A program made the position numbers and the translations under genes. This document shows positions 190 to 63,785 of a stretch of DNA of 64,000 nt, piece by piece; the stretch's first letter is position 1, and each line of letters opens with the position of its first letter. Below the pieces are notes generated by a model that ran no database searches, was not told where the DNA came from, and saw only the letters and a list, made by a program, of their open reading frames with translations. Source of the stretch: Balanoglossus misakiensis (taxonomy: Eukaryota; Animalia; Hemichordata); contig CM082589.2 of the NCBI GenBank assembly GCA_040954595.2, positions 920,690-984,689 of the forward strand. The letters are read 5' to 3'.

Positions 190-3092
190 TCAGAATCCAT
201 GTGCATCAGGTGCACCCCAATGTGGAACCTGAAATCAAACAAAAGAATTTTTTTTAATTTGTTGATTTGACATTTTGCACTTTGACAATCTGCAAGTTAT
301 TTTCTAATGGTGACAACTAAATGTTCATGTCTGAATATGCAATCATGGAGCCCTGAACATCTACTCACCGAAGATGAAGAATTTTGTGAAGAAGTCTGTT
401 GTTTCATTGCCAGTTTCTTCTCTACATTCATGGCCAACATCTGACTGCGAAACGAAAGACCTTTTGTCTTCTCAATGACTTGCTGATAAGCTGAAACTGC
501 TTGTGTTCCCATGACAACATGACCCTGATGAAAAATTCAAAAAAGTCTCAACATTAAATATTCATAAGGGTTTACATGATCACAAAAGGTTAAAGTATTT
601 TCATTTGAGTGATTATTTTCAGATACCAAGAAAAACAAGATTCATCAGCTAACCTGCTTTGAATCAATCTTCGCATCCAACCGGGCGTTGCGGATCAGAT
701 TAACAATCCACTTTTCCGCATCATCTGGTGTCATGTTCAATTTCTCTGCTAGCATGCTGAAATGATAACGTACATTTGTAATATAGGATTTAAAATCATT
801 AATGGTTAATAGATCCTGTACTTTAGGTCTAGAAAAACAGTCTCCACAATTATAAAACAAAAGTACAACTGGTGTAGCCATAGAGGGCAGTCTTACCTTA
901 TGCTAATACACTGGTGAATACGACAGAATGTCTCAAAAATAAATAATCTGGCATTTTCAATAAAGTCATCCAGACAGGCTACCAGGAAGAAGTCATTGAT
1001 CAACACCTTTAGGGAAGAAGAAAAAAAATAAACATTGAGAATCACAAACATGTCTACAAAAAGCCTATTTACACATCTTGACACGTTTTTCAGCCTCAGT
1101 GTCATCAAAATGAACTCCACACTTACTGTTTCACACTCTCGAAGCTTCCTCTGCGCGCCATCAAAATCAAAGTTGACATACAGACATTCCAGAAACTCTG
1201 TGATTGGATCTCTGTACATATAAGACTCCTGCTGTATAACTTTGACGAGATCTTTCAACACTGTCCGCCTCCTCTTGTTTGTGATGACGGCTGTGGTCAA
1301 ATATCGCAGGATGTGAGGGCACATTGTCTGTATGGCATTCAGATACCTGTTATCAACAAGAACAAATACCGTAAGTATTCATTATTCAGCCAAGCATGAT
1401 TTAAAAAATGCAAGACTTTCTAACTATCTCATAGTCCTGAAAGTGTTCCAATTTTCATGTTACTTACGGAGCTTGATAGAGAAACAAATCGATGATGGCA
1501 TCCCTGCCCTTCTGATGATTAAAAAATACAAAGAGACTCCAATGTATAAGCCAGGTCCGCTGTTGAAGCATTTGCAGAGGTGTCACAAAAACCTGGAATA
1601 AAACAAAAATAGGATATAATGGTGTTGATCAAGACCCATTTTGCAGAAAACCAGTTCAGAGCCCATTTTGCAGAAAACCAGTTCAGAGCCCCTGTTCATA
1701 TACTGAAGAATTTTATCTCATGTATTTTTTTACACTTACATTAGAATCAATGACTTCCTTGAGTCTGTTCAAATCTTCCAGCGCAGCATCCCAGTTCTGC
1801 ATGAGAATTTCTGAAGCCAGTTTTCCCCACAGTGAACTCAATGCATTCTTATCATTGGGGAGAACCTGAAAAGAAGTAGCATACAGTTAGAACTCCAATT
1901 CTTCGATACAAAGATGTCTCATTACAATCTGATCAAAGTCAGTTTCAAACAAGTAACTTACCAGAACTCTGTGGAAGTAAAGATACTCTGCTGCTCCAGA
2001 ATAGTTGCCACACTCGTATTGAAACTTAGCATACCTGTACAACGTGTCTAACATTTCAGGTAGAAACTGCAACAAAGCAAAGATACATTGTACTTATAGT
2101 TTGCTAGATTATATCATACGAACAGTGGTATTGCACAGTGCACCAAAGTCTTAAATATCCATACATGTTTAAGTTGGCAGACTAAGAAAGACCTCTTACC
2201 CCATGATTTCTGGATAAATAATCATAAAATTGTCTGCCATCTCGGGTACTCTGTATCTGTGTACTGACTTCTGGGTCTTCGAAGATCTTGACGATGGGTT
2301 CTGTGTCTGCTTGTAACTTCTTCAACTCTGCTACAACTTCAGCACGTTTGTTTTTCAGACCTTATTGAGAATATTCAGTGAGAAGATATTACAAACAGTA
2401 AATCCAACAGTAGGGGTAGTGTGGGAAGATACACAAGTCATCCAGAATGGGATTTTAGCATGGGGTGGGCGTGTGTTGCTCACAATTCTGAGTAAAAGCT
2501 CACTGGCAAATTAATCGAAAGACTGTCTCTTACTTTCAGGAACATCCTGATCTGGGTGCAGGTTTTTGTACACATCCATGGCAAAATCAACCTGCAAAAA
2601 AAAAAGATTTTGTCAAGACCCATGTATTTAACAAACAGGAAATATTGTCCATTCAGAAACGAACTACATGTAGATGGACTGTGGTGGACAGCGCCCTCTC
2701 GCCCTTTCTTACCATATTTGTTTTGCTGAGGAGGTCCAGCTTTCCTTGAAGCATTTCTTTCTCATCGTAAATCTGCAAATGAAAAAGAATGGATTAAATT
2801 TCACCAGGGTTTCGGCTTATTCTCCATTGTTAAAATCCACGGGCTGTGTTCATTACACCCAGACAACTGCAGTATGTCATATGTCACACACGTGTGGAAA
2901 CGTACATGTGTGTCTATCACATACATGTCTTCACGGCTGCATACCTGCGTACACATACCCACTTCTGATAAAGTTTCGATCAAGTATGATAGGTTCACTT
3001 ACCTCTTTGACAGAAAGGAATTCAAGAAGAGGAAAGACCAAATGTCGGTCGAGATAATTTCCTATTTTCGATGTCAAGTCGAACTCCGCCAT
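190..3092 (-). CDS. EIF3E: Eukaryotic translation initiation factor 3 subunit E (Int-6), about 12 coding exons
   Basis: ATG at 3092 gives [30 protein letters not shown] (exon 3003-3092, then GTAAG). Internal exons encode [62 protein letters not shown] and [21 protein letters not shown] (PCI domain). The last exon reads [15 protein letters not shown] (stop at 190-192). Confidence 0.97.
1635..1691. repeat. Perfect 27-bp tandem duplication in an eIF3e intron
   Basis: CCCATTTTGCAGAAAACCAGTTCAGAG at 1635-1661 and again at 1662-1688, followed by CCC. Confidence 0.95.
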
Positions 3093-3680: not shown

Positions 3681-4936
3681 ATGGCAGAAAGAGAATCGGG
3701 AGGTTCAGATCCAGTTTCAGGTGGAGACGAGCAGTCGAAATCAAGCAGGAAGGCAAAGGGTATTAAAAAATCTGGTAAGTGTTTTAATCAAATTTAAAGT
3801 CAGCTGATTGTGATTACTGATCAAGGAAGTACATGTATCTGTAACAGTCTTCTTAAATTTGTTTATTGTTTTCAGATCCAAAGAGAGAACTTCAAGAAGA
3901 CATTGACAGAGTATCTGTCATTGATACTGATGTACCAGAATGTGCAGTCTGTTTACAAAGTTGCGTCCAAGCAGTGCAATTGCCTTGCGGCCATATTTTC
4001 TGCTTCTTATGTGTCAAGGGGGTCGCCAACCAAAGCAAGAGATGTGCTTTGTGTCGGAATGAAATCCCCATGGAGTTTCTGAACTGCCCCAATCTTGTGA
4101 AACCAGTGGAGAGAATTCCACCTGCACCTGAAGACATCAAGGAAGGCTATACGTGGTTCTACGAGGGCAGGAATGGGTGGTGGCAGTATGATGAGCGCAC
4201 AACTATAGAACTGGAGGAGGCTTACAAACAGAAGAATCGTTGCATCGAACTGTTGATTGCAGGCTTTCTGTATGTTATAGACTTTGAAAATATGATACAA
4301 ATCAGACGAAATGATCCAACGAGACGAAGAAGAATCAAACGTGATTTGTCGTCTGTCCCGATGAAAGGTGTTGCTGGGATTAAATACTTGAGCTCGGTCA
4401 CTCAAGACCAGAGACAAGGCGATGGAGGGGAACTGCAAAAAACAGACACTGCTGCAGTCAGTAAAGCAACTTCCTCATCTGCAGGTGATCAAGATGTCCA
4501 GTCAACTGCAGCTCAACTTAGTGCAATAACGATTTCAGATCAAAATGATAATGAAGATGGCGGTGCTGATGGAGAAGCTGCCAGCCCTAATGAGAGAATG
4601 GTTTCTTCTGCATGTAGTTCAAGCAGAGACCAGACCAGTGTCCACTCTGAGAGAACCAATCACCAGTCTCGTTACAAATCTCCAAACTCACTAGCAAGTA
4701 TGAGCTCCCAAGCTTTGGTGGAAGGCGTACAGAACGCATTCCCTCAAGGCTTGAGGCTGCGTAGAGGAACAAGAAGACAAAACAGAAATGTGGACAGCCC
4801 AGTCAGTAGGGAGGAATATCTCTCTGGTCAGTCAGAAAATCGAAGTGGCAGACGCTATGTGCCAAGAAGTGTAGATGACACAGCTGTACAGTCTAGATAT
4901 GATGGAGATGTTGATAGTAGCGATGATGATGACTGA
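3681..4936 (+). CDS. RNF146: E3 ubiquitin ligase RNF146/Iduna (RING + WWE, PAR-dependent), 2 coding exons
   Basis: Exon 1 is 3681-3774 (MAERESGG...KKS G|GTAAGT) and exon 2 is 3876-4936 (TTTCAG|AT CCA), in frame. The C3HC4 RING reads [27 protein letters not shown]...CALCR. The WWE domain reads [15 protein letters not shown]...[34 protein letters not shown] low-complexity tail follows. Confidence 0.95.
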
Positions 4937-8083: not shown

Positions 8084-8359
8084 CTTGAAATTGGGGCGTG
8101 TGGCCTTGCAGGACCAGAGAAATGTAAGACGATTGCGAAGGGACGGACGCCCACTTTGTTACACGTGCGATCGCAGCGATTGCGTCTTCTGTAGAGGTCA
8201 TAGGTCAAAACTTGGGGGCGCACAACACAAAATGGCCGCTTACACTCTGTAACACGCGGTCCAACAAAGTTCACATTTCGTAGAGCAATTGTATGCGTAT
8301 TCATCCTCCGTTAAGCGATCGCCTGTGAATACTAGATAAAGAAGAATACAAGGAATACC
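8084..8359. promoter_or_regulatory. Very short bidirectional promoter AGPAT5/RBM34
   Basis: Only 276 bp separate the divergent start codons. The stretch is CpG-rich, with an E-box CACGTG at about 8162 and a YY1-like AAAATGGC at about 8230. Confidence 0.65.
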
Positions 8360-9601
8360 ATGAAACCAGGAAAGAGGAAAGACCGGCAAAAACAAAAAGG
8401 TAAACGCCTTCGCAGCAACAGAGGCGTTCCAGACCGTCCCAAACCTTCGCCAAAAACTTCTAGTGGTGGAGGGGCGATGCATATTCCATCGCCATTTGAC
8501 CAGTATAAGGTGGGGGGCATTGCTAGCGTTATCGGTGAAACAAAACACCAAGGAGCTACCGAACGACCGAGATCCACAAAATCAACCAAGCTGACAAAGT
8601 TATTTGGCCAATCAGAGCAGTCTTTACGGACCGTTTCAACCTCAGTGTCCAGGGAAAGTAATACCGAGTCGACTGTTGCGAAGAATGCGAAGCGCAAGAA
8701 ACCACAGACAAAAGAAAAGCGACTCAAACTTGACCAAGGAGACTCCAAACAATCAAAAGGAGCAACGCCATCGACCAAACAGAAGCCGAAGCAAAGCAAG
8801 GCGTTACTTAACCGTGAAGAAGGGCTTAGAAATGCAGAAAATACAGCTACACCAAATAAGAAGAAAAGAAAACATGATACTGATGAAACAACTAATGTTA
8901 AGAAGAAACAAAAGAAGGGAAAACCTGAGCCAAGAAATCCAGAACAGGAAAAAAGAACCGTGTTTGTTGGTAATGTACCAGTAAGTGCGGCCAAAAAGGA
9001 TTTGAAGAAGCTGTTTGGTAAATTTGGTGAGGTAGAGAGTATGCGGCTGAGATCAGCAGCACCAAGCACCCTCAGCTTACCCAAAAAAGTCATCATGATC
9101 CAGAAAGACTTCCATCCAGAGAGGAACAATATGAACGTGTATGTGGTTTTCAAGGATGAAGAATCAGCAAAGAAAGCACTTAAGGTGCATGGGAAAGAAT
9201 TCCAAGGGCATCACCTCCGTGTGGACATCGCATCAAACACTGAAAAACACAACAACAGATCTGTGTTTGTTGGGAACCTCCCATACAGTGTTCATGAAGA
9301 GATTGTCAGAGCACATTTTGGGAAGTGTGGTGATGTCGAAGATGTGAGATTAGTGCGAGATGCCACGACAGGCCTTGGTAAAGGCTTTGGATATGTTCTC
9401 TTTGCAGATCCTAGCTCTGTTGAGTTTGCACTGAAGTTTAATCAGAAACAACTACTAGGTAGACCTTTGAGAATCAAAAGAGCTGTGAAAAAGGAGAAAA
9501 CTACAGCTCAGTCTGCAGGGAAGCATCCTCATAAATTTCAGAAGATGACAGGAGCAGCATGGAGACTGGAGAAGAAAAAGAAGAGAACAAAGCAACAATA
9601 G
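8360..9601 (+). CDS. RBM34: RNA-binding protein 34 (Nop12-like, two RRMs), single-exon ORF
   Basis: 413-aa ORF with a Lys-rich N-terminus containing YKVGGIASVI. RRM1 reads RTVFVGNVP...LKKLFGKFGEVESMRLRS...NVYVVFK and RRM2 reads RSVFVGNLP...VRLVRDATTGLGKGFGYVLF. The C-terminus has GAAWRL and a basic tail. AATAAA lies at about 9782. Confidence 0.9.
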   Translation: MKPGKRKDRQKQKGKRLRSNRGVPDRPKPSPKTSSGGGAMHIPSPFDQYKVGGIASVIGETKHQGATERPRSTKSTKLTKLFGQSEQSLRTVSTSVSRESNTESTVAKNAKRKKPQTKEKRLKLDQGDSKQSKGATPSTKQKPKQSKALLNREEGLRNAENTATPNKKKRKHDTDETTNVKKKQKKGKPEPRNPEQEKRTVFVGNVPVSAAKKDLKKLFGKFGEVESMRLRSAAPSTLSLPKKVIMIQKDFHPERNNMNVYVVFKDEESAKKALKVHGKEFQGHHLRVDIASNTEKHNNRSVFVGNLPYSVHEEIVRAHFGKCGDVEDVRLVRDATTGLGKGFGYVLFADPSSVEFALKFNQKQLLGRPLRIKRAVKKEKTTAQSAGKHPHKFQKMTGAAWRLEKKKKRTKQQ

Positions 9602-15518: not shown

Positions 15519-17324
15519 TTAACAATTGCTTTGTGTTTGTCCTGCCATTTCCTCCTTAATAAGATGTAAAATAAAATGACTGAAGTACTGAAAGAGCGTC
15601 TTTACTGCAAGATCAATCGCGTATCTGCCAACGTATTTGGCTTCTGACGAAGAGGCAATTTCGGCCAGCTGCAACCGGTAGTTCTCCACAGAGTAATAAA
15701 AGTCTTTATTCAATATTTTTTCCATCTCTGCAAGATAAAAATGTTAATAACATTTGTATAAATTGTTTATATTCTCGTGACCTGGGACTCCGAATCAAAG
15801 TTAAATTGAATTGAATTGAATTGAATTACCATCTTTCACCAGTTGCATCAATACAGGATTTGTAAAGCGACCGTCTTGATCCCACTGTCTGACAAGCGTT
15901 TCCATGGACTTCTTGAGTATTTTCTGAGCAACTTGGATTTGCTCCTGTTGACCCATTTCTTGAGAGTGTATCGAACTCTTTAGTTCACTCAGTATTTTAT
16001 ATACGGGTTCCTTCATTTCGTTGTGGAGATGCCGAAATGATTCTGGCCTATACCGCGTGCCACCTGTGCCAACTGATATCATGTCAGTGAGCGCGCAAGA
16101 TATCCTCGTCCTCGTGGTGACATCGTTTAGGAGGAAGTGAAGTGTCTTGAGAACGCGGTTATCTACTCCCTGAAAGAGGTCTCGTTCAGGAATGAAATAA
16201 CCAGGACAATTCTGAGCCATTAAACATGATTTAAGCTCATTCAGTAAGTACAGGACCCGATAAACAATCTTCTCTTCCGGCAACATCTCAAGACCAATTG
16301 TTTCCAATGACCTAAAGAAAATATTCTTCAAGTGATAAGATGTAATACCCCGTAAGAGAGGGTGCGTCAAGTGGAATTTTGCCAAGTCTTTGAAGAGCAT
16401 GTAACTCAGTTTATGCGCTGTAGGAAGGTCCCGCATTAAGATCTTTTCAGCCTCCCCGAAGGAAATTCGCCATTCATCTGACGAATTTCTCCCTTTAGGT
16501 GACCTTGGTAACAGTCTGCACCCGGTATTCAAAACTTTGTCTATTAGATGTTTGGATGGCCACCCGCTTTTGCGAGGGCGAGTTACCCACTCCTGGCACA
16601 TCGATGGCCATGGTGCACAAGGAATTGCCAATGCAAGATCGCACTGAGAGTAATTTTCACGTGACCCAAAGAAGACACTAACTGCGGGAGTCTTTCTGCT
16701 GATGTGAATTTGAGCCTGATTTGCATCAACCACTCCCTCTGCTTGTCTGTTATGAACCAAGGCACTGTACTCACATAACAGAAGAAAGTCATCCATTACT
16801 TCCTTTGCCGACAATACTCTCACATCGTTTTCATTGAGTGATATTTCGTGGTAACTTATCGGTGTGTTGGTTTCTGGAACTTTGACATAAACATATCCTG
16901 GCGTTGCACTGTTGATAATTTCAAAACAAAGGTTGGGAGATAGTTTCCTTGTTTCCAACCCTACGTCAGAGGAATTGTCTACAGCTGACACCGCATCCAG
17001 GCGAACATTTACATCCAGTTCACGAAATGTCTCTTGTTGTGCTCCGTACAAAACTTGAGCGTCGGATGACGAGCCTTCAAAGCTACTACCAATAGGCTCG
17101 ATTGTTATGTGTTTACTGTCGTAGAAACTGATTCTTGTGCGAAGCATTTTGATTGGTGGGCTTTTGCTTTGCCGGAATGGAAATGCCAAGAAGTGGGCTA
17201 CCCTCTGCAAGCATTTGTCGTGTCCTGTTTGCATTTCTGCGATGCGAGGGATTGAATACACTCGACGAAATGTTGGACACCATTTTATTGCTACACTCCA
17301 ATATTTCACTGGATTCCCAAACAT
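15519..17324 (-). CDS. Mab-21/cGAS-like receptor (cGLR) nucleotidyltransferase, 2 coding exons, about 567 aa
   Basis: Exon 17324-15830 splices (G|GTAATT ... TTGCAG|AG, 102-nt intron) to exon 15727-15519 in frame (...VKDE MEKILNK). Motifs are IGSSFEG...ELDV and CDLALAI (NTase triad), WP...EWVTRPRKSGWPSKHLI, EWRISFGEAEKILM, SYHLKNIFF and CPGYFIPERDLF. An upstream acceptor at about 17343 implies an unlocated 5' exon. Confidence 0.88.
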
Positions 17325-18081
17325 TCTTTCAAGGGTCTACGACTGTGGGAGAAATAAGAAAAAATCATTTAAACTGAAGTATACACATATGAATCAACGA
17401 GGAATGTTACTTTCGTTTTGTCAAAAATGTAAATAACATTCTAAAAATATCGCTAAGTCCTATATGACAAAATGCCTCGTGACTTTAATGACGCAATAAT
17501 TAATCCGGTTTTCGCGTTTGTGTGTCGCTTCACCAAATACTGGGGGCAGACCAGTCCAGGGTCGATTTATATCGAGATTTATAAGACTGCTTTCTGCGAT
17601 TTACAAAACTAACACTACTTGAGACTTAACAACCAGATGGTTGGCGCTTTATTTTGCACATAATATCAATATTTAAATCACCAACGAACGATCTGGCCTC
17701 GCATACCTGTATACACCTACGCAAAATGCTGAAAAATCGTCCTTGAGTCGTTTTGGAAAATAAATCATTTTTAGTAAGATTACAAACATATTCATAGCGA
17801 TAAAAACTTGTGTGCAAGTTAATAGATGTTTTGAGATACATGTATATAAAGAAACAGATCTTACATTTCCTGAAGAGTAAGTCTTTGTGTTGTCTTTCCA
17901 ATGTCGACTTGTACAATAGACCTCGCCCCTTTTATACGCGAGCTGTTTTTCTATTGTACTGTTGTTCAGAGGTCACTCGGGTCAGTGCCTTTAAGCCTCA
18001 CACAGTGTTACACTGACAACGTAAGGAACTGGTCAGTTTCTCCGCACGGGGGTCGGTGGAGTTGCTAAATTGGTGTCAATG

Positions 18082-31509: not shown

Positions 31510-32505
31510 TTAGTCGTGTTTGCTGTTTGTGATTTTGAGCATCGCCTTTTTCCTCAGCCACAAAACAGTTAAGATGTTCACAAGAATAAGAACCATGGTA
31601 ATACCAAACGTACGCATAATATTCATGTTAAAATGCGACTCGATGTAGCTTCGTCTGTTTTTCAAATCAATAAACTCTGCCTGCATTTGACTGTATGTGC
31701 AGAGTGGAATGAATATATGGAACAGTTGATGTCCGTGGCCAATGATATCAAATCGACCTGGAGCTAATTTCTGTGGAAACGGCGAGGCAAAGAAGACCGC
31801 TCCCACCAAAAACCACAAAATATGTTGTTTGTGGAACTCGATAGCTTCATCTTCACAGGAATTAGACCAACAGAGAAATATGCGGTGTAATATCGGAAAA
31901 ATAATCCAAACATAGAGGCCACCCACAGAGGTAATCTGCCAGAGTTTTCTTGCGAAGGGATAAGGGCGGTCGTATTTTACTTTGGCATAACCGCAAGCAG
32001 TGCACGCAAACCAGGCCAGTGAAAGGTTGATAATGGGAAATAGCCATCCATCCCCGACAGCAGACAAATATGACTTATGGCTGCTGTAATAGTAGTGAGC
32101 TAAGCCGCTTGTGAATCCATACAAGCTAATACCAACGTAGTCAATGAAAAAGCAGGTGTAATGAACAAGCTCGGAATGGGATTGCATCAGGTGAGCAAAC
32201 GTACTCAGGAAAGTGTACACACAACATGACGCACACAAAAGAACTAACGGCCAACAGTACAAGTCGTTTGGAAAATCAATATTACCAGAAAGCGTGTATA
32301 TTTTGTAGCATAAAATCGAACATGCAATAAGATGGGTCCAAACATTGAGAAGTTCATTGTGCACTTGAAAGAGGCTTAGAATGTAGTATATGAAAGGTTG
32401 GTGAGGAGGTCTGTATCCATTGTGAACATCAGGTTCTCGGAATAGCTTTGGTACTTCTTCTGCACTTTTAGTACGAGGTAGTTTAGGTAGCTCAAGCTTG
32501 GCCAT
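31510..32505 (-). CDS. Membrane progestin receptor alpha/beta-like (PAQR class II, PAQR7/8-like), single coding exon
   Basis: 331-aa ORF with 7-8 hydrophobic helices. Motifs are VPKLFREPDVHNGYRP, HNELLNVWTH, STFAHLMQSHS, FFIDYVGIS, P.K.APGRFDIIGHGHQLFH and Q.QA. A splice acceptor at 32607 indicates 5'UTR exon(s), with donor candidates at 33824 and about 33352. Confidence 0.92.
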   Translation of the reverse strand: MAKLELPKLPRTKSAEEVPKLFREPDVHNGYRPPHQPFIYYILSLFQVHNELLNVWTHLIACSILCYKIYTLSGNIDFPNDLYCWPLVLLCASCCVYTFLSTFAHLMQSHSELVHYTCFFIDYVGISLYGFTSGLAHYYYSSHKSYLSAVGDGWLFPIINLSLAWFACTACGYAKVKYDRPYPFARKLWQITSVGGLYVWIIFPILHRIFLCWSNSCEDEAIEFHKQHILWFLVGAVFFASPFPQKLAPGRFDIIGHGHQLFHIFIPLCTYSQMQAEFIDLKNRRSYIESHFNMNIMRTFGITMVLILVNILTVLWLRKKAMLKITNSKHD

Positions 32506-33824
32506 TTCTACTGGAAATCTGCAGAGTATCCTTTTATAGTTGTCACATCAAACGTTGCGGCTGGGTTGCTATCAAAGATCTGCCTTCTCCATATTTGTAT
32601 TAAACCCTGAAATGATACAAAAATAATAGATGACCTGTTAAAGCACACACTGGATCTGCATGTGTTTGACTATTGTTAATATTTGCAATCAGGTTTGCCA
32701 TTCAAGTTTCAAATAGGTCAAGGACTATAGGTTGGCTGTACACGCACATATTGTATTGACACACTGAAGAAACACTTGAGAAAATAAAGATTCCAAATTC
32801 AATGGAAAGGTAAGTTGAGTGACAATATTAACTCAAGTAAAAATAGATTGTCAGTGTACTGTTTTCTTCAATGAATCTTTACTATTACATGTATGTCTGA
32901 AGATGTGAGTTGGTTGAAATTTACATTACCAGAGACTGTTTCAGACAATAGACATGAAGGTTAATTATCCGTGTCACTATTGTCTGCTGTCAGTCTCTGA
33001 GAATTGCAATTATCTTGTCTCTCATTACAGGGCATTGTTAATTCATAATGCTGAACAACAGTGGTAATGAACCGCTTTAGTTTTCAATTATTCAACAGCC
33101 ATTCAAGATGATAGAATAAGATAGATTATGACCAAATCCTTTAAAAATATCTTGGAATATGAATTCTGTTAAATAACTGCTTCTAGACATCTCATATTTT
33201 TGGCATATTATAAAACTTAAAATTTATTTGGGGCAATATACCTCGTCATGTATAGATTTCAGGCGAAATGTACTACCCCTAATAGTATATGTTCGGCCAT
33301 GATGTGTGTGACTTGATGATGATCCCCAAAGACCTATAAAAATTAAACTCACCGTTAACAAATAATTCTTATGAACTGTACAGTTTATGACGTCATTCCT
33401 GCAATGTGTCAATTTGATGTCGACAATGATACTAATAACACAACCAACAGCTTCGATGTCGTCAACCAACTTCTGTTTGTTGTGTATAACAACAGATTCC
33501 GGAGAAACGCTGTTGTTTACTGTATATTCACTGGACAAGTTCCTTTTCAATGATAGATCGTCAGTCCGTCCATTCGATTTCCTGTGTGCTGGATTTTACA
33601 GACGATCTAATTTTAGATTTAAACAGCAGTTGGCAGACATGTGGTGAATAATTAAAGCCGTGTTACTGATCAATCACCCGGCGTTCGAGCTGTCCTTCCA
33701 TCAAAGAATAATCACATCAGGGATTTGAGTCACGCGAAAAGCGCGTGAAACCTTTCACTTCTACGACATGCCAGTAAAATCGCACTTTCCAAAACGTATC
33801 AAGTTTCTATAAAACATCACTTAC

Positions 33825-37968: not shown

Positions 37969-50142
<12,174 letters not shown>

Positions 50143-53707: not shown

Positions 53708-56700
53708 TCACATCATGGGCGGTTTTTCATTCATGACTTTCCTGATTCTGTCCAGGACCTGATGGAAATTCTGTTTGTAGAGTTTGTCGTTGCTCAGATC
53801 AATCTGCACAGTCCTGGCCAGCATCTTCTTGATACTGGGCTGTGCCGTGTCTGGCGGCCATGCTACAAACCTCAGTAAGATAGGAACAATCGGTTTGTTG
53901 AGGTGATCAGCCAGCGTTAAGTCCTTAATACAGTTATCCGATTGGATGTACCGAGGTGTGATGCAGCAGATAACGACAGCAGCTGATTTCATGTTCCGTT
54001 GTATCGTCATATGCAACGTCTCGGCCGGTGGTTCGTTGTGGAGACCAGCTGATCCTCTCGCACTAATGCTGCTATGCCCCCTCTGGGCCATGGTGGGACT
54101 GATATCGGCCCAACATGGAAGTCCGTTGGCTTCAAGTACTCTTCTGATTTCCTGGACTTTCGTCTGCATATCCCACTGATAACTGATGAATACTTTCGGT
54201 TCAACTACTTCTTCATTGAAAGACAATGCTGAAACAAGAAAGAATTACACATAAATGATGCAAAATCAAAAAACTTCCAAATAATGTCATAGGTCGCCAG
54301 GAGGTCACCAGGGGTCAGAGTGCAAAGGTGAGAGTAATTCTCAGTTCAAGACTGACCTGTGGATGCAGCCAACACTTGCAGTGGTTTCAGTCCGTCTGCC
54401 ATTCTGTTGAGATAGGCTTGTTCCAAGACAACACCAGGGACTTTGCGCAGCGGTTTGATCTGATGTTCTAACACGTCCATACTCTCCGAGTACATCTTAG
54501 TTTCAAAGTCAACAGCTGGGCATTCACCTGCAATTCATAAAAAATAATGTAAGTCTGTGTTTCTTCTTCTAATCTCATATTTGACATTAGCTTCAGGCCT
54601 TTCTTGTGAAATCGAAACAAGTTTCTTCCCGAATGAGACTTCTCCTACCTAGAACAGCTTTCATGGACGGTCTGAATTTCTGCCACACATTCTTGAACAT
54701 TGCCGTGACGATCATCTTTCCCAGCCAATCAGCAAAGAGCACCTCATGGAAGACAAATGGAGATGATGATGCTGCTTCTGTCATGACGATAACCACATGT
54801 TTGACCGTTGCTATGTGCGGTCCATTGACTTGGAGAAACTCATCCTTGGATTGGCCGAGCTTCTCATGTGACAAGACCTGTGAAGAGGTAATACATTTAT
54901 TGTTTTAGATTCTGGCCATCCTATCAATAACAGAGATAACATTTGTAACATTTCTGTAAAAGGCAGTGCCCACTGTAAGCAGAAATCAAATATGACCTGA
55001 TGTTAGTTGAACATAAGCTCCTAAACATCCCATTTCTGACAAATATATTAATGCACTAATGATCAATACACCAGTAAACAAGTCCACTGCTCAATTTCCC
55101 AAAGTCACTCCATTCACGTCCACAATTCCAAATATTTTATTTCAGCGCCACACAGGTACTTCATCATTCACACTTGCACCATAAACAATTGATAGTTGTC
55201 TGAAGCCACTCATGAGAAATCTAAACAAGTCTATAACGCACACAGCGTCCATTCAGTCTTTGTTGATATTATTGATTAGGAAATACCTCTGATTGTAAAG
55301 ACGGGCATCGATCAAAGGCTGAAAGCCCACACAATTGATACTTTGTTTACGACACTATCAGTCCTTCAGAAATATTTTCTCTCCACCCAAGTCAACAGAC
55401 TTGCTAAGTTCATATCCAGTATTTTTTCATTCTGAAATATCCATGCGATATGATGGAAAGATAAGGATGTCGGAACTTGCAGCCTTGTCAGTTTATCACC
55501 ATTGCATATTAGTTTCAAATACCCAAATCCTAAAATGACGAGGAATAATATTGGGTTGAACATGGAAGCTTAGGAGCACTGTGTACAGATATTACTGACA
55601 GATGTGCAAATTTCTATTACTAATATTTTTGAGAAGCAGTGTTCTGATTCACATTGTGAACAGAGCTACCAGTTACGAGACAGAGTCCACCTTTATAGAT
55701 CCTGAGTTCATTTGTATAGGCAATGTGGTGACCTGTGTTACCTACCCAGGTGACCTGTAACCACGGTGTTGACCTCACGGTCAGCTAGTACGCTGTGGGA
55801 ATACATAGCAATGAGTCAATAGTTGATTAGTCTGGGTATGTGCAGCTAATAAATAATAAACAGTACTTAATTGTAACCTGGTTGCGTATCTTATGCCTGA
55901 TTAAGTCGTCTGCACTATACATTGTATTGTTTCTTCTTTTTTGCCTGTAACCCTACTGTAACATTCATGCTCTGCATGTTACATGTTAGTTTGTATGTGG
56001 CAGCATTGACAACTCTAAGTTGTTCATCCCTAACAAGTACATGCATGCCATTGCACTAGAAGTAGTACATGTAATTGGAGGTATCTGTGGTCTATAGTCT
56101 CTTCATAATAGAACTTCTCCACAATGAATGAAAAGGGACTGAAAGAAAACTCAATTGTACATGACATCTCCGTTCAGCCCAACCGCAATACAATCGAGAG
56201 TCACCTCAGAATACATGGCCATCAACAATCAGAAAAAGCTATCAACAAAAGTGGAATGGATGCCAAACTTGAGTTGCCTTGAACAATCTGATTGCAAACA
56301 ACAATGGTAGACACTGGACCTTTCTAGTGCCGCGTGAAAGCCAGTGATGGCGGGAGGGCAATGGCTGTAGTACCTGTACTTGTAAAAGCTGTTTACTTTA
56401 AGAAGATTTCAAAAGTGTGTACATGTACAGCAAGCAGGTTGATATGTGTGAGAGAATGAAGAACTTTGATACCATTGGCAAACCGTCTCTAAACAGTTCC
56501 TATGACAACCGTGCAAACCTTGACATTTCCTGACCATGAAAATGCACAATAGATAGAACTCATCACAAACAACTTCTGCAGACATGTATGTACCAGTAAA
56601 TGGCTTGAAATGTAACCACAGATTTCAAGCTACAGAGTCACTCAGATTGTTGTGTGCAAATATAACTGCAAACTCCAAACAGCAAATGACTCAGTCAATA

Positions 56701-59700
56701 CACCTCAAGCACCTGAACTCCCATATATTTTGAAGTTTCATTTACTCAGGAAGTAACCACTGCACAGTTGCTTGCTATCGGCAATGTTAACATGTCTCCA
56801 TGGAAACCCATCAAACAAAGTCACTCTTCAACCACCTGTTTGATTCGCCGAGCATGTCGTGTTATTTACATACTTGGTCTACCCCCTTTCCTGAGCACAC
56901 ATTGAACTGACTTCCAGTACACTAACAAAATATTTATCTTCATGAACATGTTGTTGGGTAGTCTTTATCTCAGCTGATTCTTAAAATGATGATGTCACTG
57001 ATAAATCAGATAGTAGGGATCTCAGTAACACATTAAAATACCACAGTGGATCTGTCAGATACATGTATATTTGTCTGTCAGTCTGTGTGTTGGTTTGCCT
57101 CTATCTATTTATCTGTGTCTCGGACTGTCTGTCTGTCTCTCCTGTCTGTGTCTGTCTGTCTATCTATCTGTGTCTCTGTCTGTCTGTCTCTCTCTCTAGT
57201 TCTGAAGCATGTGTTTGACTGTCATGTATGACACTTTTAATTCTGATGCTATGTACATGTACAAGTAAACATACAGACCCACAGAAAACAGACAGAGCCA
57301 GCTGTGCTATCAGTTTGTTTACAGTTAGCAAAGATTTCAGGGTTTGTGACCAACATGGACTGATCCATGGGGTCTGTACTTTCTAAACACCCATTCTGTC
57401 ACCAAATACTTACACTGAGATTGTGGTAAACATGGCTATGAGATGGAATCTATTGTTCTGTAACAATACCATTTCAATCTCAACAGAACTGGCCATTCGT
57501 ACATCCACTAGAACTGATAGTCGGCACCCAATGTGGATGTAAAAACCGTGAAATTGCAAGCAGCTCAGGAATGCAATTTATAATCTCGGATGTTAACGTT
57601 TTCAAAATATGTTAAAAGGTCTATTTTCTATCTGAATTAGACCATTACATGCATTAAAATGGCTCTAAATGGTTGCCATGACTACAGGATTACAAATGTA
57701 TCCAATGTGGTATTGTTACTGAAGAGCTGTTTGCAGGGTGCTATTGAGTTACTATGTTATTGTGTGGTATTCTGAAGTGGTCAGTTTATACACCACTGGC
57801 ATCAAACTCTAATTTTTTTTTCAAAAAGAAAGTGGGCTATGTTGCTTTACGGAATATATATCAACTTCAGTTGTTGTCAAATATCGACTGATTATTTTTT
57901 CTGGTACAATGTACATGTACCCTTTGATCTGACTGCATGATTCAGTTGTGAATCGATCTTCTGTCACCTCCAACCCGAACCATTAATCGGAGGGTCATGG
58001 CTGGGGTTTATAGGGGGATAAGGGGAGAGGCTGGCATGACTATTTCAGTCTAGACTGCCTGCCAGGCCACTCACAGTTTGCGTGACACTACATCATATTC
58101 TGCAACTAAAACGAAGTCATTAAAACTCTTTAGTTACTACGCAGCCACCCATCCATCATTCATTTCAACCATAACGGTAATAGCCTAAACGTACAAGTGA
58201 GCACTTTTCCTTTTAACTGTTGCAAAGTAATTTATAGCACACGTTTCCTTAACAATTCATAAATAACATTTTTCATCTGATGGGAACTGTAAAGGAACAA
58301 TCACTGTAACTTCCTTTTTACATGTACTGATTCTATGCATGTGTTTGGCTGAGGATTCGTTCATTATACATTAGATAAATACATGCACTGTTCCTTATAT
58401 TTCAGGTCCACCAATACTTCACTAAGAAACAATGGACAGTGTACGGTGATCGGAAACCTTGCCCTTGTATGTACAAAGCCGTTTTTATTTACATCCACAA
58501 CATATTGAAAGCCAACAGTACCCCCTCGTAGCTCATTAGCAGCAGGCAGGAGTGTTAGGTAGCCAAGGGGAGAATATACTCCTATTATAAATGTACCACC
58601 ACCCAGTGTGTACATAGCAACACAGTTATTTTGAAAGGCTGCACTGAAGTCAAGTTGGCGTATCCAGGTGAAAGATACATTTAGCAATGACCTCATGAAA
58701 AACTCTGATAGCATTGCTATTGACAAAACCCACAACTCTAATCCAATCAAAGCATGGCCACTTCCCAACACCACAGATACATACATTGGTCTGTAAATCT
58801 ACTTCAGAAAACCAGTTCAACACAGAGTGATTCTGAATGTACTTTGAAATGCAATAAAAGAACTAATTTAATTTTCTCTCAGGATTTACACAACTAATAA
58901 ATATCTGTCGTGATAATTCTATTAATTGCCGGGAGAAATTGCATTGGAAATCGTTTATTAGTTGTGCTTGAATCAATATTCAAGGCATGCTGGGAAAATC
59001 AAACACTTCCATTATGAAAGTCCAGACTGCAATTGTCACCAAAAAAGAAGCTGAACTTTGCATCTCAAATTCAAGGAGAACAAGAAACCAAGCCTAAAAG
59101 GGAGTTGATTCCCAGATCAGAAATGTTTAAAACTCATCTAAACATTTACAAACTTACTGGAGGTTTTTGGTGGTATATTTATGCATGGTAGCAACTCATG
59201 TTTCTGAATTGTGTATTTATATAAACATGTGCCATATTTGCGATTACTCAAAGACATTTCCGCATTCAAAGATTTCATTATTTTTCAAATAAAGTCACAC
59301 AGAACTATTTGCCACTGAGGCAACAAGGACTTAACACAGACTTAAACAGAAGTTTAATACAATCCTTCTCTATACACTGTAACTTAGACTTTAATATACA
59401 AGCAAGCTAACATACCACAGCCTCCGGTGGTTTCTACCCAACCAAAGCTTCAAATACAATACCTTATTTCTTTCCTTCTATTCTTCCTTCATTCAAAAGA
59501 AAAAATCTCTGAAACAGTGTATCCTTAGATCCGCAAAGCAATTTAGGTCAGGTTGGCATTTTTGGGGGGTATTTTACTGCATTACAATACAAGTCTTTTC
59601 ACCCCCAACAACATAACAAGGTTCAGTTTTGGATTTTACAAGAACATACAGGTCAGACACGCCTCCATCAATACACACACGTATAAAGCTTCCATTTGTG

Positions 59701-62280
59701 TGGCGACCTGACCTTATTAGACTACACTCGGCTGCGTTCGATCCTCGAGGGGACCATCTCTGAATCCATTCCAGGTTTCTCCCTTAATGACGTACCTGTC
59801 GCCCTAACAACACCGATTTGTCAGTTTATTTCCCATGGCCATTGCACTACCTTTTCAATCGGATAACTTTTTAAACCGCCTTCCTCAAGGCGACAAATGC
59901 ATTTACGACTTGTAATCGGTTTTATCGCTTCTTAAACATTTCCACCACATTCAACCACCGTTTCCTTTGAGACAAACTTTGAGTAATTAGGTTTATTTTG
60001 GCAGCTTTCAGTCTTTGCCCTATTGTGGTCTTCTTTGACAAGCTATACACAATGTTTACCCATTTTGTTAGAACTGAAGTTTGCCTGGTCCTAGATTGAT
60101 TGTATATGTGTATAATTTGAACAACACTATTGTGTCCCTGTATTTTACTGTATCCATGACAATATTTCTGATTAATGTTGAGTGTCTAAACTAACATTGT
60201 TTGTAATAGCTACATTATCTAATCTAAGGCCATGAGATTAACCAACAGGATATGATTATTCAATGATATGATAGCTGAGTGATAAAACATTTATTGGTTC
60301 TGCAAGGATAACCTTCACAGTTAGAACACAGACTGATGTAGCCATCACTCCACTGTTTATAAAATATAATGTATTAGTCAGATTTCTGCTTTATTGTGTG
60401 CAGATACCACAGATGTACTAAGTGTCTTGTCCAATGTACAAGTTGGTAACGTCACTCAGCAGGTGTCCCAAATATTACACACCTACGTACCAGAGCCCAC
60501 AAGACAACTTAACCCAAAGTTAATTCTGTTTCCATTACATGCCTAGAATGTCAATACTGACAGCCAGTGTCATGTCTATTTCTTTTGTGAATGTGTTTCT
60601 TTCAGTAAGAAATGTCTAAACATGAATGAACAGGAGCGTGTTGTGTTTAAGCACTTAAATCTTGGGGATCAAGCTGTATAAGAAATTCCAATCTCTATTC
60701 TCTCAGTGCTCTGGTATTTTCAGCAATGTTTGATTTACAAGCAGTGGAATGCTTCAGACTTTAACAAGTGTTGTGTAATTTTATTTCAACACCTGGTCTC
60801 TTACCTGTAGGTTTTTCTTTCTCAGATCTTGTTTCAAGTTCTGAGCCAACCTGACATCCGTTGGATCGTAGACCAAATAAACACTATCAGGTCTTGCTCG
60901 GACAGTCCTTGCTCTCAGGTGCCAGTTATCCGGCATTTTGTGTTCCCTCTCCAGAATAGACAAGATCTGTTGCAAGATTTTCTTGCGGACAACCCTGCTA
61001 TCAATGGCCAGCAGATCTTGCATATCACTATCCATAATCGACATCAACAGAAACCCATCCACTTGGTTTTCTGCAAAGCTTTGTCGGTAAAACTCTCGCA
61101 CTCCCAAGTTAAACAGCCATTCTTGTAGATCATACTGTGTCCACTGACAGATTTTTTTCTTCTTGTACTCCCCGGTGAATTCATTCGGTGAATCAACCTG
61201 GTGGAGAGGCACATTCACGTAAGCAAACTGCTCCAGCTTCTCCATCAGGTTGCCAACGACAACAGAGGTCTTCTCCGCGATGCTGGTCTTTGCGTGAGCA
61301 CCGGTCAGATCCACAAGCTCGTGCAGAAACTCATTGTACATTCTGGGTATCTCAGTTTGATTGTACAAGATCAGGAAAATGCGTGGCACGGTAGATCCCG
61401 ACCCAACCCTTTCAAGCAAACATCGACCCTCATAGATGGACACCGGACACTGAAAGTAACTTTCCGACAAGAAACAAACTGCAGCTCTACATTTCTCGAC
61501 CGCTTCCATCCTTTGAGAAAACCACGATGGACTGTCTGTGTTTTTCTCATCTTTATCAAACCAGATATCTTCGCTGAGATTATTTTCCTTCAACTGTCTC
61601 ACAGTTTCACTGACAAACTTTCTCTCAGAGAAACTCGCATCCGGGGAGTAAGAAATATAGATGCACTTCTTCATCTTTTTACCATGAGTCTTCCTCTGCG
61701 GTGCGGCAGGTGTTTTTGACTGTATCGTCTTCTCCATCTTCTTTGCTTCCTTCATCACGATCTGTTCTATATTTGCTGCTTGCACTGCATCGATGTGGTC
61801 AGTCTCTGTTGGACCTTTCTTTTTGCCAACTGTTGGATCACTTTTGCTTTTCGGGATACCGTCTCCGACAGTGTCCTTAGCTTCACCCATGTCCGTTTCA
61901 CCGGCAGTTTCTGTCCGATCGTTCTCATGGTGACCGTTTTCTCGCGTCTCCTGTGATTTTTGGCCTTCCTGGCCACTTGGGGCATCCCCTTCACCCATCT
62001 CCCCACCTTTTAATGAGCTCTGATCGTTTCGATCGCTTTCAGCTTGCTGGCGATCGCTGTCGATGTTATTTTGCTGTGGGGTTATCACAACAGGATCGAC
62101 AGGTGCACCACTTGTACTGTTATGAGCGTTCTCGTCAGCAGGTTGTTCTGCTAAAGTTGCTACCTTCTCGTCTGTCTGTTCTGTGTTGCTGTCAGCTATA
62201 TTATCGACCTTACCGTCGTTCTCATTTTCTTCTGCTTTCTGATTGTCAGTCACTTCTTGATCTTCGCCAGTTTTGCTCAT
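53708..62280 (-). CDS. Uncharacterized TIR-SAM-TIR-TIR protein (TIR_2-type domains), 4 coding exons, about 798 aa
   Basis: Exons 62280-60805, 54877-54649, 54527-54357 and 54228-53708 have GT-AG boundaries and total 2397 nt in one frame. After a disordered acidic N-terminus come TIR1 (IYISYS...IWFD...AAVCFLSESYFQCPVSIYE), SAM (WTQYDLQEWLFNLGV..YRQSFAENQVDGFLL...DMQDLLAI...RKKILQQI), TIR2 (VYLVY...VVIVMTEAASSSPFVFHEV) and TIR3 (VFISYQWD...CWAD...VICCITPRYIQSDNCIKDL...KPIVPIL). An in-frame upstream ATG at 62385 is an alternative start. Confidence 0.85.
57070..57197. repeat. Imperfect (TCTG/TCTA/TC)n microsatellite in the large intron of the TIR gene
   Basis: GTCTGTCTGTCTCTCCTGTCTGTGTCTGTCTGTCTATCTATCTGTG... 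Confidence 0.8.
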
Positions 62281-63262
62281 TTTCAGCGCGTCGATCACGC
62301 TGTCCGATTGACCGCCACCATGTAGTAATGCTGTACGCCGTACGCTTAGAAACCAAACACTGTCAAGTTGCTTATGAATATTCAATTACTTATTTTTTGC
62401 TCACTAATGACCTGATGGTACCCCAACCGTAAACAAAATACACGCAGATTAACATGAAGTAAGAAAGTGACAACATCATGAAACATAATCAGACACTCTT
62501 ATAGTTTAATTATGACATCGCATTATTTTTTATTTAATTGCTGATTGATAATGTTCAAAAAACAATGCTTTTACCCTCTCATACTCACAGCAAACGCCGG
62601 CAACAAAACGCATGAGCTCTTCCTTGTAGTATCTCACCTCCTACTGAAATGGTTACATGAAATGCTATCTCGTTTGCTCACGTGGGATTTTGCGAGACCC
62701 TGGTGATTCTATTTTTAGCAATCAATGAATCATTCAGATATGATTTTATAAACCTATATATTATCGTACGCGTGATTTCTTTCGTGAAATAGTTGTGAAA
62801 TAAAACCACACGTCTTCACATATTTACAGTATGACTGTGATCACTGTTGAAATTTGACCTATTTTGTAACTTTCACTGATTATAAATCGGCTATTCTGAT
62901 TGGCTTATAGTGGATCACCAGAGAATACAGCAATGTGATTGGGTTACATCACCGGGTGACCTGAGGTCATCTTATCGAGGTTATAGCAGTCGAAATTTCT
63001 TGACAGTGGCATAACAACCGAAGAAATGGGAATATCTACTGTGTTTTGACCCCCAAAATTGGCACATTTTGGCCTTCAGCAAGGACTTGAAGTATCATCC
63101 GAAGTCACAGGACCAACGCTGTAAAATTCAGAAGAGACGGTAGTTTTATAATCAACGCGTGACCAGACAACATTTCATAAGTCATAACTCGATATTTACA
63201 CAACTTCCTTATTTTTACGTTTTGACCAGTCTGAAACAAGTTATTTACAAAACTGCCTCAAT

Positions 63263-63361
63263 ATGTTTTCATTCATGGACCCCCAAATTGCAGCTGCAGT
63301 TTCCATATTCTTTGCTATTGGATTTTTCCTGTATGTGATATTTGGAAATCCGAAAGAAAAG
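63263..63361 (+). CDS. Candidate first coding exon encoding a single transmembrane segment
   Basis: ATG at 63263 or 63275 gives MFSFMDPQIAAAVSIFFAIGFFLYVIFGNPKEK, ending at a strong donor AAG|GTGAGT. It is divergent from the TIR gene. The downstream exon is uncertain. Confidence 0.45.
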
Positions 63362-63785
63362 GTGAGTAACTTAATTTGTTGATTTCATATTGTAAAAAAA
63401 TGTAAGTTTTTGAATAAATAATTGTATCAATATCAGTATTGTCATTGTCAAGATGAGTTATTACATATACACAATGAACAAAATCTTTTCATACTCATTT
63501 TTATTCCTCGAATGTAGCAATGATTGTCAAGACTAAATGTGGAAGTCTATACATTAGTATGTTACATCATTGATAGCACCACATTTTGACAGGTATAGCG
63601 GTTGTACATCTAAATCACCTACGCAACACGCCGACGGTGCATGGTCTTGTCACATGGATAGCTCATGACACTGGCTACTGCGTACGTGTGGTTTGGAATA
63701 TCAACTCCTATTCTGATCAAAATATATTATAAAAACTGTTGTATATATACATGTATAAGAAATGTAGCACATACACCAAATACTA

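What the first reader, a model, noticed from the sequence alone, without database searches (positions are those of the whole stretch)
53708..62280. TIR-SAM-TIR-TIR protein: a SARM1-unlike candidate self-assembling NAD+-consuming or signalling enzyme
Seen: an intact 4-exon ORF with a ~200-aa acidic disordered N-terminus, three TIR_2-like domains and one SAM, but no LRR, TM, ARM or death domain. Established: SARM1 (ARM-SAM-SAM-TIR), plant NLR TIRs and bacterial Thoeris/CBASS TIRs cleave NAD+ using a Glu in the alphaC helix (S..Y..S.WC..E), and SAM-driven oligomerisation activates SARM1. Inference: this is a cytosolic multi-TIR module that clusters through its SAM and either depletes NAD+ or makes cADPR-like messengers. 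The architecture differs from SARM1, MyD88 and the TLRs. I cannot tell from the window whether it has been described.
Basis: partly seen in the sequence, partly recalled or inferred. Interest (0 to 1): 0.8.

Follow-up and report, generated by a model that had tools for sequence, protein, structure and literature searches.

The report
Ancient triple-TIR protein, one likely enzyme
This is an intact four-exon acorn-worm-type gene for an already named but untested family of animal immune-type proteins (TIR-SAM-TIR-TIR), in which only the first of the three TIR domains keeps a near-complete NAD-cutting motif, so it likely works as a self-assembling NAD-cleaving signal enzyme that its two degenerate TIR domains would regulate.

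Summary
Four GT-AG exons on the minus strand give a 798-aa frame without stops, 92% identical over its core to a Ptychodera flava protein with the same junctions. AlphaFold2 models of orthologs show a disordered tail, TIR, SAM, TIR, TIR.

The architecture is not new. It is drawn as family ecTIR-DC 5 (PMC6321704 supplement), is probably the amphioxus 'TIR-SAM' of 2008 (PMC2575513), and sits mostly in uncharacterised Clade 13 of a 2026 TIR atlas (PMC13142454). This scan also met it earlier in sharks. I found no functional study.

The three TIRs differ. TIR1 keeps the catalytic Glu (224/226) and both BB-region acids. TIR2 keeps Glu in invertebrates but loses it in newt and paddlefish. TIR3 has Asp instead (51/51) and a disordered Ser/Thr-rich BB loop. 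The TIR1-SAM unit also occurs in green algae, fused to EF hands.

Best reading (0.45): an oligomerisation-gated TIR1 NADase with two regulatory pseudo-TIRs. Main rival (0.4): a non-enzymatic scaffold. Neither activity nor self-assembly is shown.

The parts
60805..62280 (-). Exon 1 (codons 1-492): acidic tail, basic patch, TIR1, linker, SAM, start of TIR2; phase-0 donor
   Evidence: donor position shared by 138 of 199 homologs
61696..62280 (-). Acidic, predicted disordered N-terminal tail (about aa 1-195); length varies from about 10 to 226 aa among orthologs
61666..61680 (-). Polybasic patch (aa 201-205) just before TIR1 strand A; at least 4 K/R in the last 14 residues in 43 of 43 full-length orthologs
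61225..61665 (-). TIR1 (about aa 206-352), candidate catalytic domain: S210, Y211, D242, D244, Y275, E284 (codon 61431-61429); Val at the Trp position
60943..61155 (-). SAM domain (about aa 376-446); best PDB sequence match is SARM1's first SAM
60805..60894 (-). TIR2 part 1 (aa 463-492)
54878..60804 (-). Intron 1, 5927 nt, GT-AG; orthologs show no missing coding segment
54649..54877 (-). Exon 2: TIR2 part 2, with E537 (codon 54745-54743); strand-B Asp absent
54357..54527 (-). Exon 3: end of TIR2 and conserved helical linker
53708..54228 (-). Exon 4: TIR3 (about aa 634-792) with Asp728 at the catalytic Glu position (codon 53923-53921), then the stop codon
54002..54103 (-). TIR3 BB-loop insert (aa 668-701), Ser/Thr-rich and predicted disordered, with an R-G-x-S type motif

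Best explanation
This is the hemichordate copy of an ancient, vertically inherited animal gene (ecTIR-DC 5 layout, TIR-SAM-TIR-TIR) whose protein likely cleaves NAD+ through TIR1 once SAM-mediated assembly would bring TIR1 domains together, while TIR2 and TIR3 likely act as non-catalytic regulators. Shown: the gene, the folds, the orthology and the residue pattern. Inferred: (1) TIR1 is the enzyme; (2) TIR1, SAM and TIR2 pack into one rigid body that would hold TIR1 inactive, in the role ARM plays in SARM1 and the RRS1 TIR plays for RPS4; (3) TIR3 is the input end, its Ser/Thr-rich BB loop a candidate phosphorylation or partner-binding switch; (4) the basic patch localises the protein. Whether the output is NAD+ depletion or an ADPR-derived messenger cannot be told from sequence.
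For: TIR1 site residues are near-invariant: E284 224/226, D242 223/223, S210 221/223, Y211 219/223. D244, which sits at SARM1's E596 position by spacing from the strand-B Asp, is Asp in 192/194; E596K abolishes SARM1 NADase (PMC7688312, passage). MyD88, which lacks activity (PMC7282519, passage), has Gln where TIR1 has E284. TIR1's Glu survives in newt and lungfish while TIR2's is Leu or Gln in newt and paddlefish. TIR3 is Asp in 51/51 with a 24-67 aa BB-loop insert. The TIR1-SAM unit, Glu included, recurs in green algae with EF hands or as a tandem repeat instead of TIR2-TIR3, so TIR1-SAM looks like the core and the C-terminal part like an exchangeable regulator. The SAM's best PDB match is SARM1's first SAM (E 2e-8), and its end-helix is basic (R432 223/232; K or R433 218/232). 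pTM of 0.76 for a tail-less ortholog and 0.65 for the full one exceeds what two rigid domains would give and fits at least TIR1-SAM-TIR2 being rigid (rough ceilings). Active TIRs paired with TIRs lacking the Glu or BB-loop Asp are known in plant NLR pairs (PMC13732033, passages).
Against: TIR1 lacks the conserved aromatic at the SARM1 W638 position (Val 157, Ile 23, Leu 14 of 226) and mostly lacks the BB-loop Gly (Asp 118, Gly 42 of 223). A kept Glu is not diagnostic: Dictyostelium TirD has the homologous Glu and showed no NADase activity, nor did TirB (PMC13142454, passages), and TLR TIRs keep it too (recalled). There is one SAM, not SARM1's tandem pair, and no solved structure shares the overall arrangement (Foldseek TM-score by query at most 0.16 in the listed rows). 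No member of Clades 10-13 has been characterised (PMC13142454, section 5). That Glu-to-Asp disables a TIR is recalled and chemical inference; two searches found no paper stating it.
Confidence: 0.45

Rival explanations
1. It is a non-enzymatic multivalent scaffold or negative regulator: three TIR surfaces and a SAM nucleate or cap TIR assemblies (TLR, MyD88 or other ecTIR-DC proteins), and the conserved Glu residues are structural.
For: Most animal TIRs are scaffolds, and TLR4 and MyD88 TIRs lack NADase activity (PMC7282519, PMC13142454, passages). Each TIR has at least one site defect. TIR1's closest PDB sequence match, though weak (E 0.13), is MyD88. ecTIR-DC proteins were hypothesised to be adaptors or regulators (PMC6321704, passage).
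Against: TIR1's pocket residues are more invariant than its surface, from cnidarians to amphibians and in algal relatives. The family is retained in Trichoplax, which has no true TLR (PMC6321704), so TLR adaptor duty cannot be its only role.
Confidence: 0.4
2. Catalysis sits in TIR2, in a composite site between two different TIRs of one chain, or in TIR3 with altered chemistry (Asp nucleophile, another nucleotide substrate).
For: TIR2 keeps Glu in 43/43 full-length sequences examined (no vertebrate among them), with an aromatic at the Trp position. TIR3 is the closest fold match to SARM1-TIR (Z 16.5-17.1, rmsd 2.2, 128 aligned), and its Asp never varies (51/51). TIR active sites form between two TIRs (bioRxiv 2021.10.02.462850, passages).
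Against: TIR2 lacks the strand-A Ser and strand-B Asp and loses Glu in newt and paddlefish. TIR3's BB loop is replaced by a disordered insert.
Confidence: 0.12
3. The four exons are not one gene, or the frame is a chance or dead sequence.
For: No RNA from this organism was seen.
Against: Gapless orthologs across all junctions, full-length ORFs on 2.4-3.6 kb Logan contigs (likely transcripts), a conserved intron position, and a tree that follows the species tree.
Confidence: 0.02

Closest known systems
ecTIR-DC family 5 (Gerdol et al. 2017, paper not held; seen only through PMC6321704 suppl. Fig. S1: Trichoplax TrispH2_000557, 804 aa)
   Same: Identical order TIR-SAM-TIR-TIR, similar length, no TM helix; widespread in invertebrates.
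   Different: Nothing architectural. The Trichoplax sequence could not be compared. The class was described as apparently absent from vertebrates, but newt, lungfish and paddlefish records match.
Amphioxus 'TIR-SAM' Brafl1_131196 (Zhang et al. 2008, PMC2575513 suppl. file 5; source of the 'Bf-TIR-SAM-like' labels by inference)
   Same: 714 aa, as are the B. lanceolatum ortholog P0112 and the B. floridae TIR-SAM-TIR-TIR row in the atlas. Its cDNA (454-1022 bp) would span TIR1 to SAM.
   Different: Only two domains were named and no function was tested. Identity with the ortholog rests on length and layout, not on a sequence comparison.
TIR atlas Clade 13 (PMC13142454, preprint)
   Same: Of 11 family rows found in its table, all annotated TIR-SAM-TIR-TIR, 9 are Clade 13; the Lingula row matches P0005.
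   Different: 2 of 11 rows are in no supported clade, and the table gives one clade per protein, not per TIR. The clade is described as uncharacterised.
SARM1 / TIR-1 (ARM-SAM-SAM-TIR NADase)
   Same: SAM most like SARM1's first SAM; TIR3 fold closest to SARM1-TIR; Glu kept in TIR1 and TIR2.
   Different: No ARM, one SAM, three TIRs, different atlas clade (13 against 8), different overall fold arrangement. The automatic 'SARM1' labels on orthologs are misassignments.
Plant paired TIR-NLRs RPS4/RRS1 (PMC13732033)
   Same: An active-type TIR is coupled to a TIR lacking catalytic or BB-loop residues.
   Different: Two NLR proteins there, one chain here; no NB-ARC or LRR; an analogy only.

Membership tests
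ecTIR-DC 5 | Domain order TIR-SAM-TIR-TIR | tested here: met
   (43 of 310 proteins with all four domains, none in another order)
ecTIR-DC 5 | No TM helix, LRR, ARM or death domain | tested here: met
ecTIR-DC 5 | Orthology with invertebrate proteins of this layout | tested here: met
   Tree of 37 rows recovers hemichordate, echinoderm, mollusc and lophotrochozoan groups (quick tree)
ecTIR-DC 5 | Sequence match to a protein named ecTIR-DC 5 by the authors, and the original definition | not testable with these tools
   Gerdol 2017 not held; Trichoplax sequence not in the supplements searched
SARM1 | N-terminal ARM autoinhibitory domain | tested here: not met
   Disordered tail instead
SARM1 | Two tandem SAM domains and one C-terminal TIR | tested here: not met
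   One SAM, three TIRs
SARM1 | SAM-mediated octamer | not testable with these tools
   Needs SEC-MALS or EM
Enzymatic TIR NADases | Catalytic Glu in helix C (TIR1) | tested here: met
   E284 224/226
Enzymatic TIR NADases | Catalytic Glu in helix C (TIR3) | tested here: not met
   Asp 51/51; gapless register to SARM1 E642 read
Enzymatic TIR NADases | Catalytic Glu in helix C (TIR2) | tested here: inconclusive
   Glu 53/59; 3 real losses (newt, paddlefish, one unnamed) and 3 misaligned rows. phmmer gave another register against SARM1; I use the one set by helix C and strand D in the model
Enzymatic TIR NADases | Strand-B / BB-loop Asp | tested here: met
   TIR1 D242 223/223; TIR3 Asp or Glu 51/51; absent in TIR2
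Enzymatic TIR NADases | BB-loop Gly and helix-C Trp (TIR1) | tested here: not met
   Gly 42/223; Val, Ile or Leu at the Trp position. Whether these are required in this clade is unknown
Enzymatic TIR NADases | Measured NAD+ cleavage that depends on the Glu | not testable with these tools
   Needs an assay
MyD88-type adaptors | Death domain plus single TIR | tested here: not met

The most novel reading that the evidence does not exclude
A SARM1-independent, pan-animal NAD+-cleaving enzyme that carries its own brake: one active TIR and two pseudo-TIRs in a single chain, an animal one-gene counterpart of plant sensor/executor TIR pairs. It is switched by phosphorylation of TIR3's BB loop, built on a TIR-SAM core that green algae instead couple to Ca2+-binding EF hands, kept from placozoans and cnidarians to lungfish and newts, and would be the first enzyme shown in TIR Clades 10-13.
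Probability: 0.25. Interest if true: 0.8.

Novelty: new member of a known kind. Interest (0 to 1): 0.4.

Why it matters
The gene itself is an ordinary ortholog of a named family. Its value is as a test case. Few animal TIR-type NADases are known (SARM1, and TEP1 in a 2026 preprint, 10.64898/2026.09.21.753143), and the eukaryote-only TIR Clades 10-13 have no characterised member (PMC13142454). This family is small, highly conserved, soluble and has a clear residue pattern that makes three point mutants decisive. If TIR1 is active, most animal phyla have a second NAD+-based signalling or death switch that model organisms seem to lack.

Tried and rejected
No whole genome is held for this window, so copy number in this species was not checked. 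No RNA holder was listed; this is no evidence on expression. The complex prediction of two copies of TIR1-SAM-TIR2 of P0001 with NAD gave no answer (score 0.00, alignment not used) and is not counted either way. Foldseek on the whole model returned SARM1 chains with low TM-scores and no match to the overall arrangement. The VIA searches were dominated by TIR3 and the SAM, so TIR1 and TIR2 were only lightly tested. Window TIR3 had no PDB sequence match. Paper searches: 'TIR-SAM-TIR' 0 papers; SARM1 SAM mutants 0, and not in PMC7688312, so my recollection that SARM1 L442 and I461 are octamer hot spots (the window has L411 and V430 there) is unverified and not used as support; Glu-to-Asp searches gave no direct statement; two searches showed no study of this family in their listings; 'ecTIR' returned noise. 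Gerdol 2017 and one other DOI were not held, so what they say on this family's expression, range or residues is unseen. Rejected: SARM1 orthology (automatic UniRef and Atlas labels); a recent triplication of one TIR (TIR2 and TIR3 are related, E about 1e-7 to 1e-8, but TIR1 is not detectably closer to them, E 0.01 or worse). The careful tree did not finish, and the places of long branches (newt, two Logan rows) are unsure. No amniote, teleost, insect or nematode name appeared among listed hits, but many hits are unnamed and the searches were word- and length-limited, so loss is not shown.
Full report
Observation. The minus strand carries four exons, 62280-60805, 54877-54649, 54527-54357 and 54228-53708, separated by GT-AG introns of 5927, 121 and 128 nt. 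Joined, they give 798 codons and a stop. Pfam finds TIR_2 and SAM in exon 1 and TIR_2 in exon 4, and nothing in exons 2 and 3 alone. The best homolog is Ptychodera flava P0001, 92% identical over residues 195-492 and over the whole core, followed by Glandiceps and Saccoglossus, so the window is from an acorn worm close to Ptychodera (inference). P0001 starts at the same Met and crosses all three junctions without gaps. Of 243 hits, 199 cover the SAM and reach TIR2; 138 of these stop matching at 488-497, 48 run to the end, 4 stop near the other two donors and 9 elsewhere. Several full-length homologs lie on Logan contigs of 2.4-3.6 kb, which points to spliced transcripts (inference). No RNA run for this DNA was listed.

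Structure. AlphaFold2 was run on two natural orthologs with 109-row alignments, not on the window's joined protein. P0001 gave pLDDT 79.8 and pTM 0.65, with most of residues 1-187 and 665-687 disordered. The tail-less Antedon protein P0089 gave pLDDT 91.8 and pTM 0.76. Both show three TIR folds and a SAM joined by ordered linkers. A rough ceiling calculation puts two rigid domains at 0.36-0.52, TIR1-SAM-TIR2 at 0.54-0.62 (P0001) or 0.66-0.74 (P0089), and all four at 0.67-0.75 or 0.84-0.92. So at least three domains are predicted to pack together; docking of TIR3 is uncertain. TIR3 matches SARM1-TIR (Z 16.5, rmsd 2.2, 128 aligned), Hydra TRR-2, IL-18R and MyD88 at similar levels. TIR2 matches a B. 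cereus TIR (Z 13.1) and TIR1 a prokaryotic SEFIR (Z 12.0) and IL-1RAPL2 (Z 11.4) (similar). No solved chain shares the whole arrangement. The SAM's best sequence match in the PDB is SARM1's first SAM, E 2e-8.

Range. Of 310 proteins held at that point, 43 had all four domains, always in this order. Named members cover hemichordates, echinoderms, amphioxus, molluscs, annelids, a brachiopod, a nemertean, a bryozoan and anthozoans. Partial models come from newt, lungfish and paddlefish; newt P0311 holds the end of TIR1, SAM, TIR2 and TIR3. A quick tree of 37 rows follows the species tree with strong support for hemichordates (100), echinoderms (99), molluscs (100) and lophotrochozoans (99). Green algae (Cymbomonas, Pyramimonas, Bryopsis) have TIR1-SAM relatives at 21-27% identity, fused to EF hands or repeated.

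Active-site audit. TIR1: S210 221/223, Y211 219/223, D242 223/223, E284 224/226, D244 192/194 and Y275 178/194. The Trp position is Val, Ile or Leu in most, and the BB-loop Gly position is Gly in only 42/223. TIR2: E537 in 43/43 full-length rows and 53/59 when partial rows are added; three exceptions are real (newt Leu, paddlefish Gln, one unnamed Gln) and three are misaligned. Its strand-A Ser and strand-B Asp are missing. TIR3: Asp728 in 51/51 at the Glu position, Asn at the Trp position in 49/51, and a BB loop of 24-67 residues rich in Ser/Thr, with an R-G-x-S type motif in 34 of the 38 rows parsed (5 of 43 were not parsed). A basic patch precedes TIR1 in 43/43. Register was set by motif spacing, the MyD88 alignment for TIR1 and the SARM1 sequence for TIR2 and TIR3; phmmer itself aligned TIR2 to SARM1 in another, low-scoring register.

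What is in print. [quoted passage not shown] 2017, and says the class appears absent from vertebrates with a hypothesised adaptor or regulator role. Gerdol 2017 was not seen. PMC2575513 (passages, supplement passages) lists a 714-aa amphioxus TIR-SAM model with cDNA support. PMC13142454 (sections 5 and 10, passages, supplement rows) lists 11 family rows among 16 motif hits, 9 in Clade 13, and calls Clades 10-13 uncharacterised. PMC13732033, PMC7282519, PMC8295901, PMC7688312, PMC12106052, PMC5549309, PMC6836662, bioRxiv 2021.10.02.462850 and 10.64898/2026.09.21.753143 were seen as passages only. Ten searches turned up no functional study of this family; subscription journals are mostly not covered, and bioRxiv supplements were closed. 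After I had reached the ecTIR-DC 5 assignment, the scan's index showed two earlier shark reports with the same assignment; these are not independent support.

Mechanism. The pattern fits one candidate enzyme and two degenerate partners. TIR1 keeps the Glu and both BB-region acids in nearly every lineage sampled and travels with the SAM into algae, while the C-terminal part is exchangeable. TIR NADases need TIR-TIR assembly to complete their site (bioRxiv 2021.10.02.462850), and SAMs supply that in SARM1 (PMC8295901). I therefore favour a resting, compact TIR1-SAM-TIR2 body that opens or polymerises on a signal reaching TIR3 (0.45). The scaffold reading is close behind (0.4), because a kept Glu does not prove activity (TirD, PMC13142454) and TIR1 lacks the Trp and usually the Gly. 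Every step past the residue pattern is inference.

Verdict. A real, intact gene and a new member of a named but untested family. The architecture is not novel. The per-domain division of labour and the algal TIR-SAM-EF-hand link were not found in the papers I could see. Interest 0.4.

Noticed in passing
window 15804-17336 (-): Long open frame with Mab-21 nucleotidyltransferase and Mab-21_C domains (cGLR-like), lying among what look like cytochrome P450 exons (my reading), about 36 kb from the TIR gene. No link to the TIR gene shown.
   Followed up: partly
window 62295-62321 (-): Short upstream out-of-frame ATG frame of 8 codons ending 15 nt before the main ATG, read by eye; could damp translation if it is in the mRNA.
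   Followed up: no
window about 63263-63362 (+): Small hydrophobic coding-like exon ending in a GT donor, facing away from the TIR gene about 1 kb upstream; possibly a divergent neighbour.
   Followed up: no
window 896-1378 (-), 3857-4933 (+), 8336-9598 (+), 31513-32547 (-), 49723-50139 (+): Other genes: eIF3e-like exon (recalled likeness, no Pfam hit), RING-WWE protein (RNF146-like), RRM protein, HlyIII/PAQR protein, focal adhesion targeting domain.
   Followed up: partly
P0176, P0200/P0321, P0157: Green-algal proteins with a TIR1-SAM unit related to this family, fused to EF hands or tandemly repeated; the helix-C Glu is kept.
   Followed up: partly
P0128, P0262, P0311, P0131, P0150: Newt, lungfish and paddlefish models match the family, against the statement that it is absent from vertebrates; one newt model holds a duplicated TIR1-SAM, and TIR2's Glu is lost in newt and paddlefish.
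   Followed up: partly
window about 57080-57200: TG/CTGT-type simple repeat inside intron 1.
   Followed up: no
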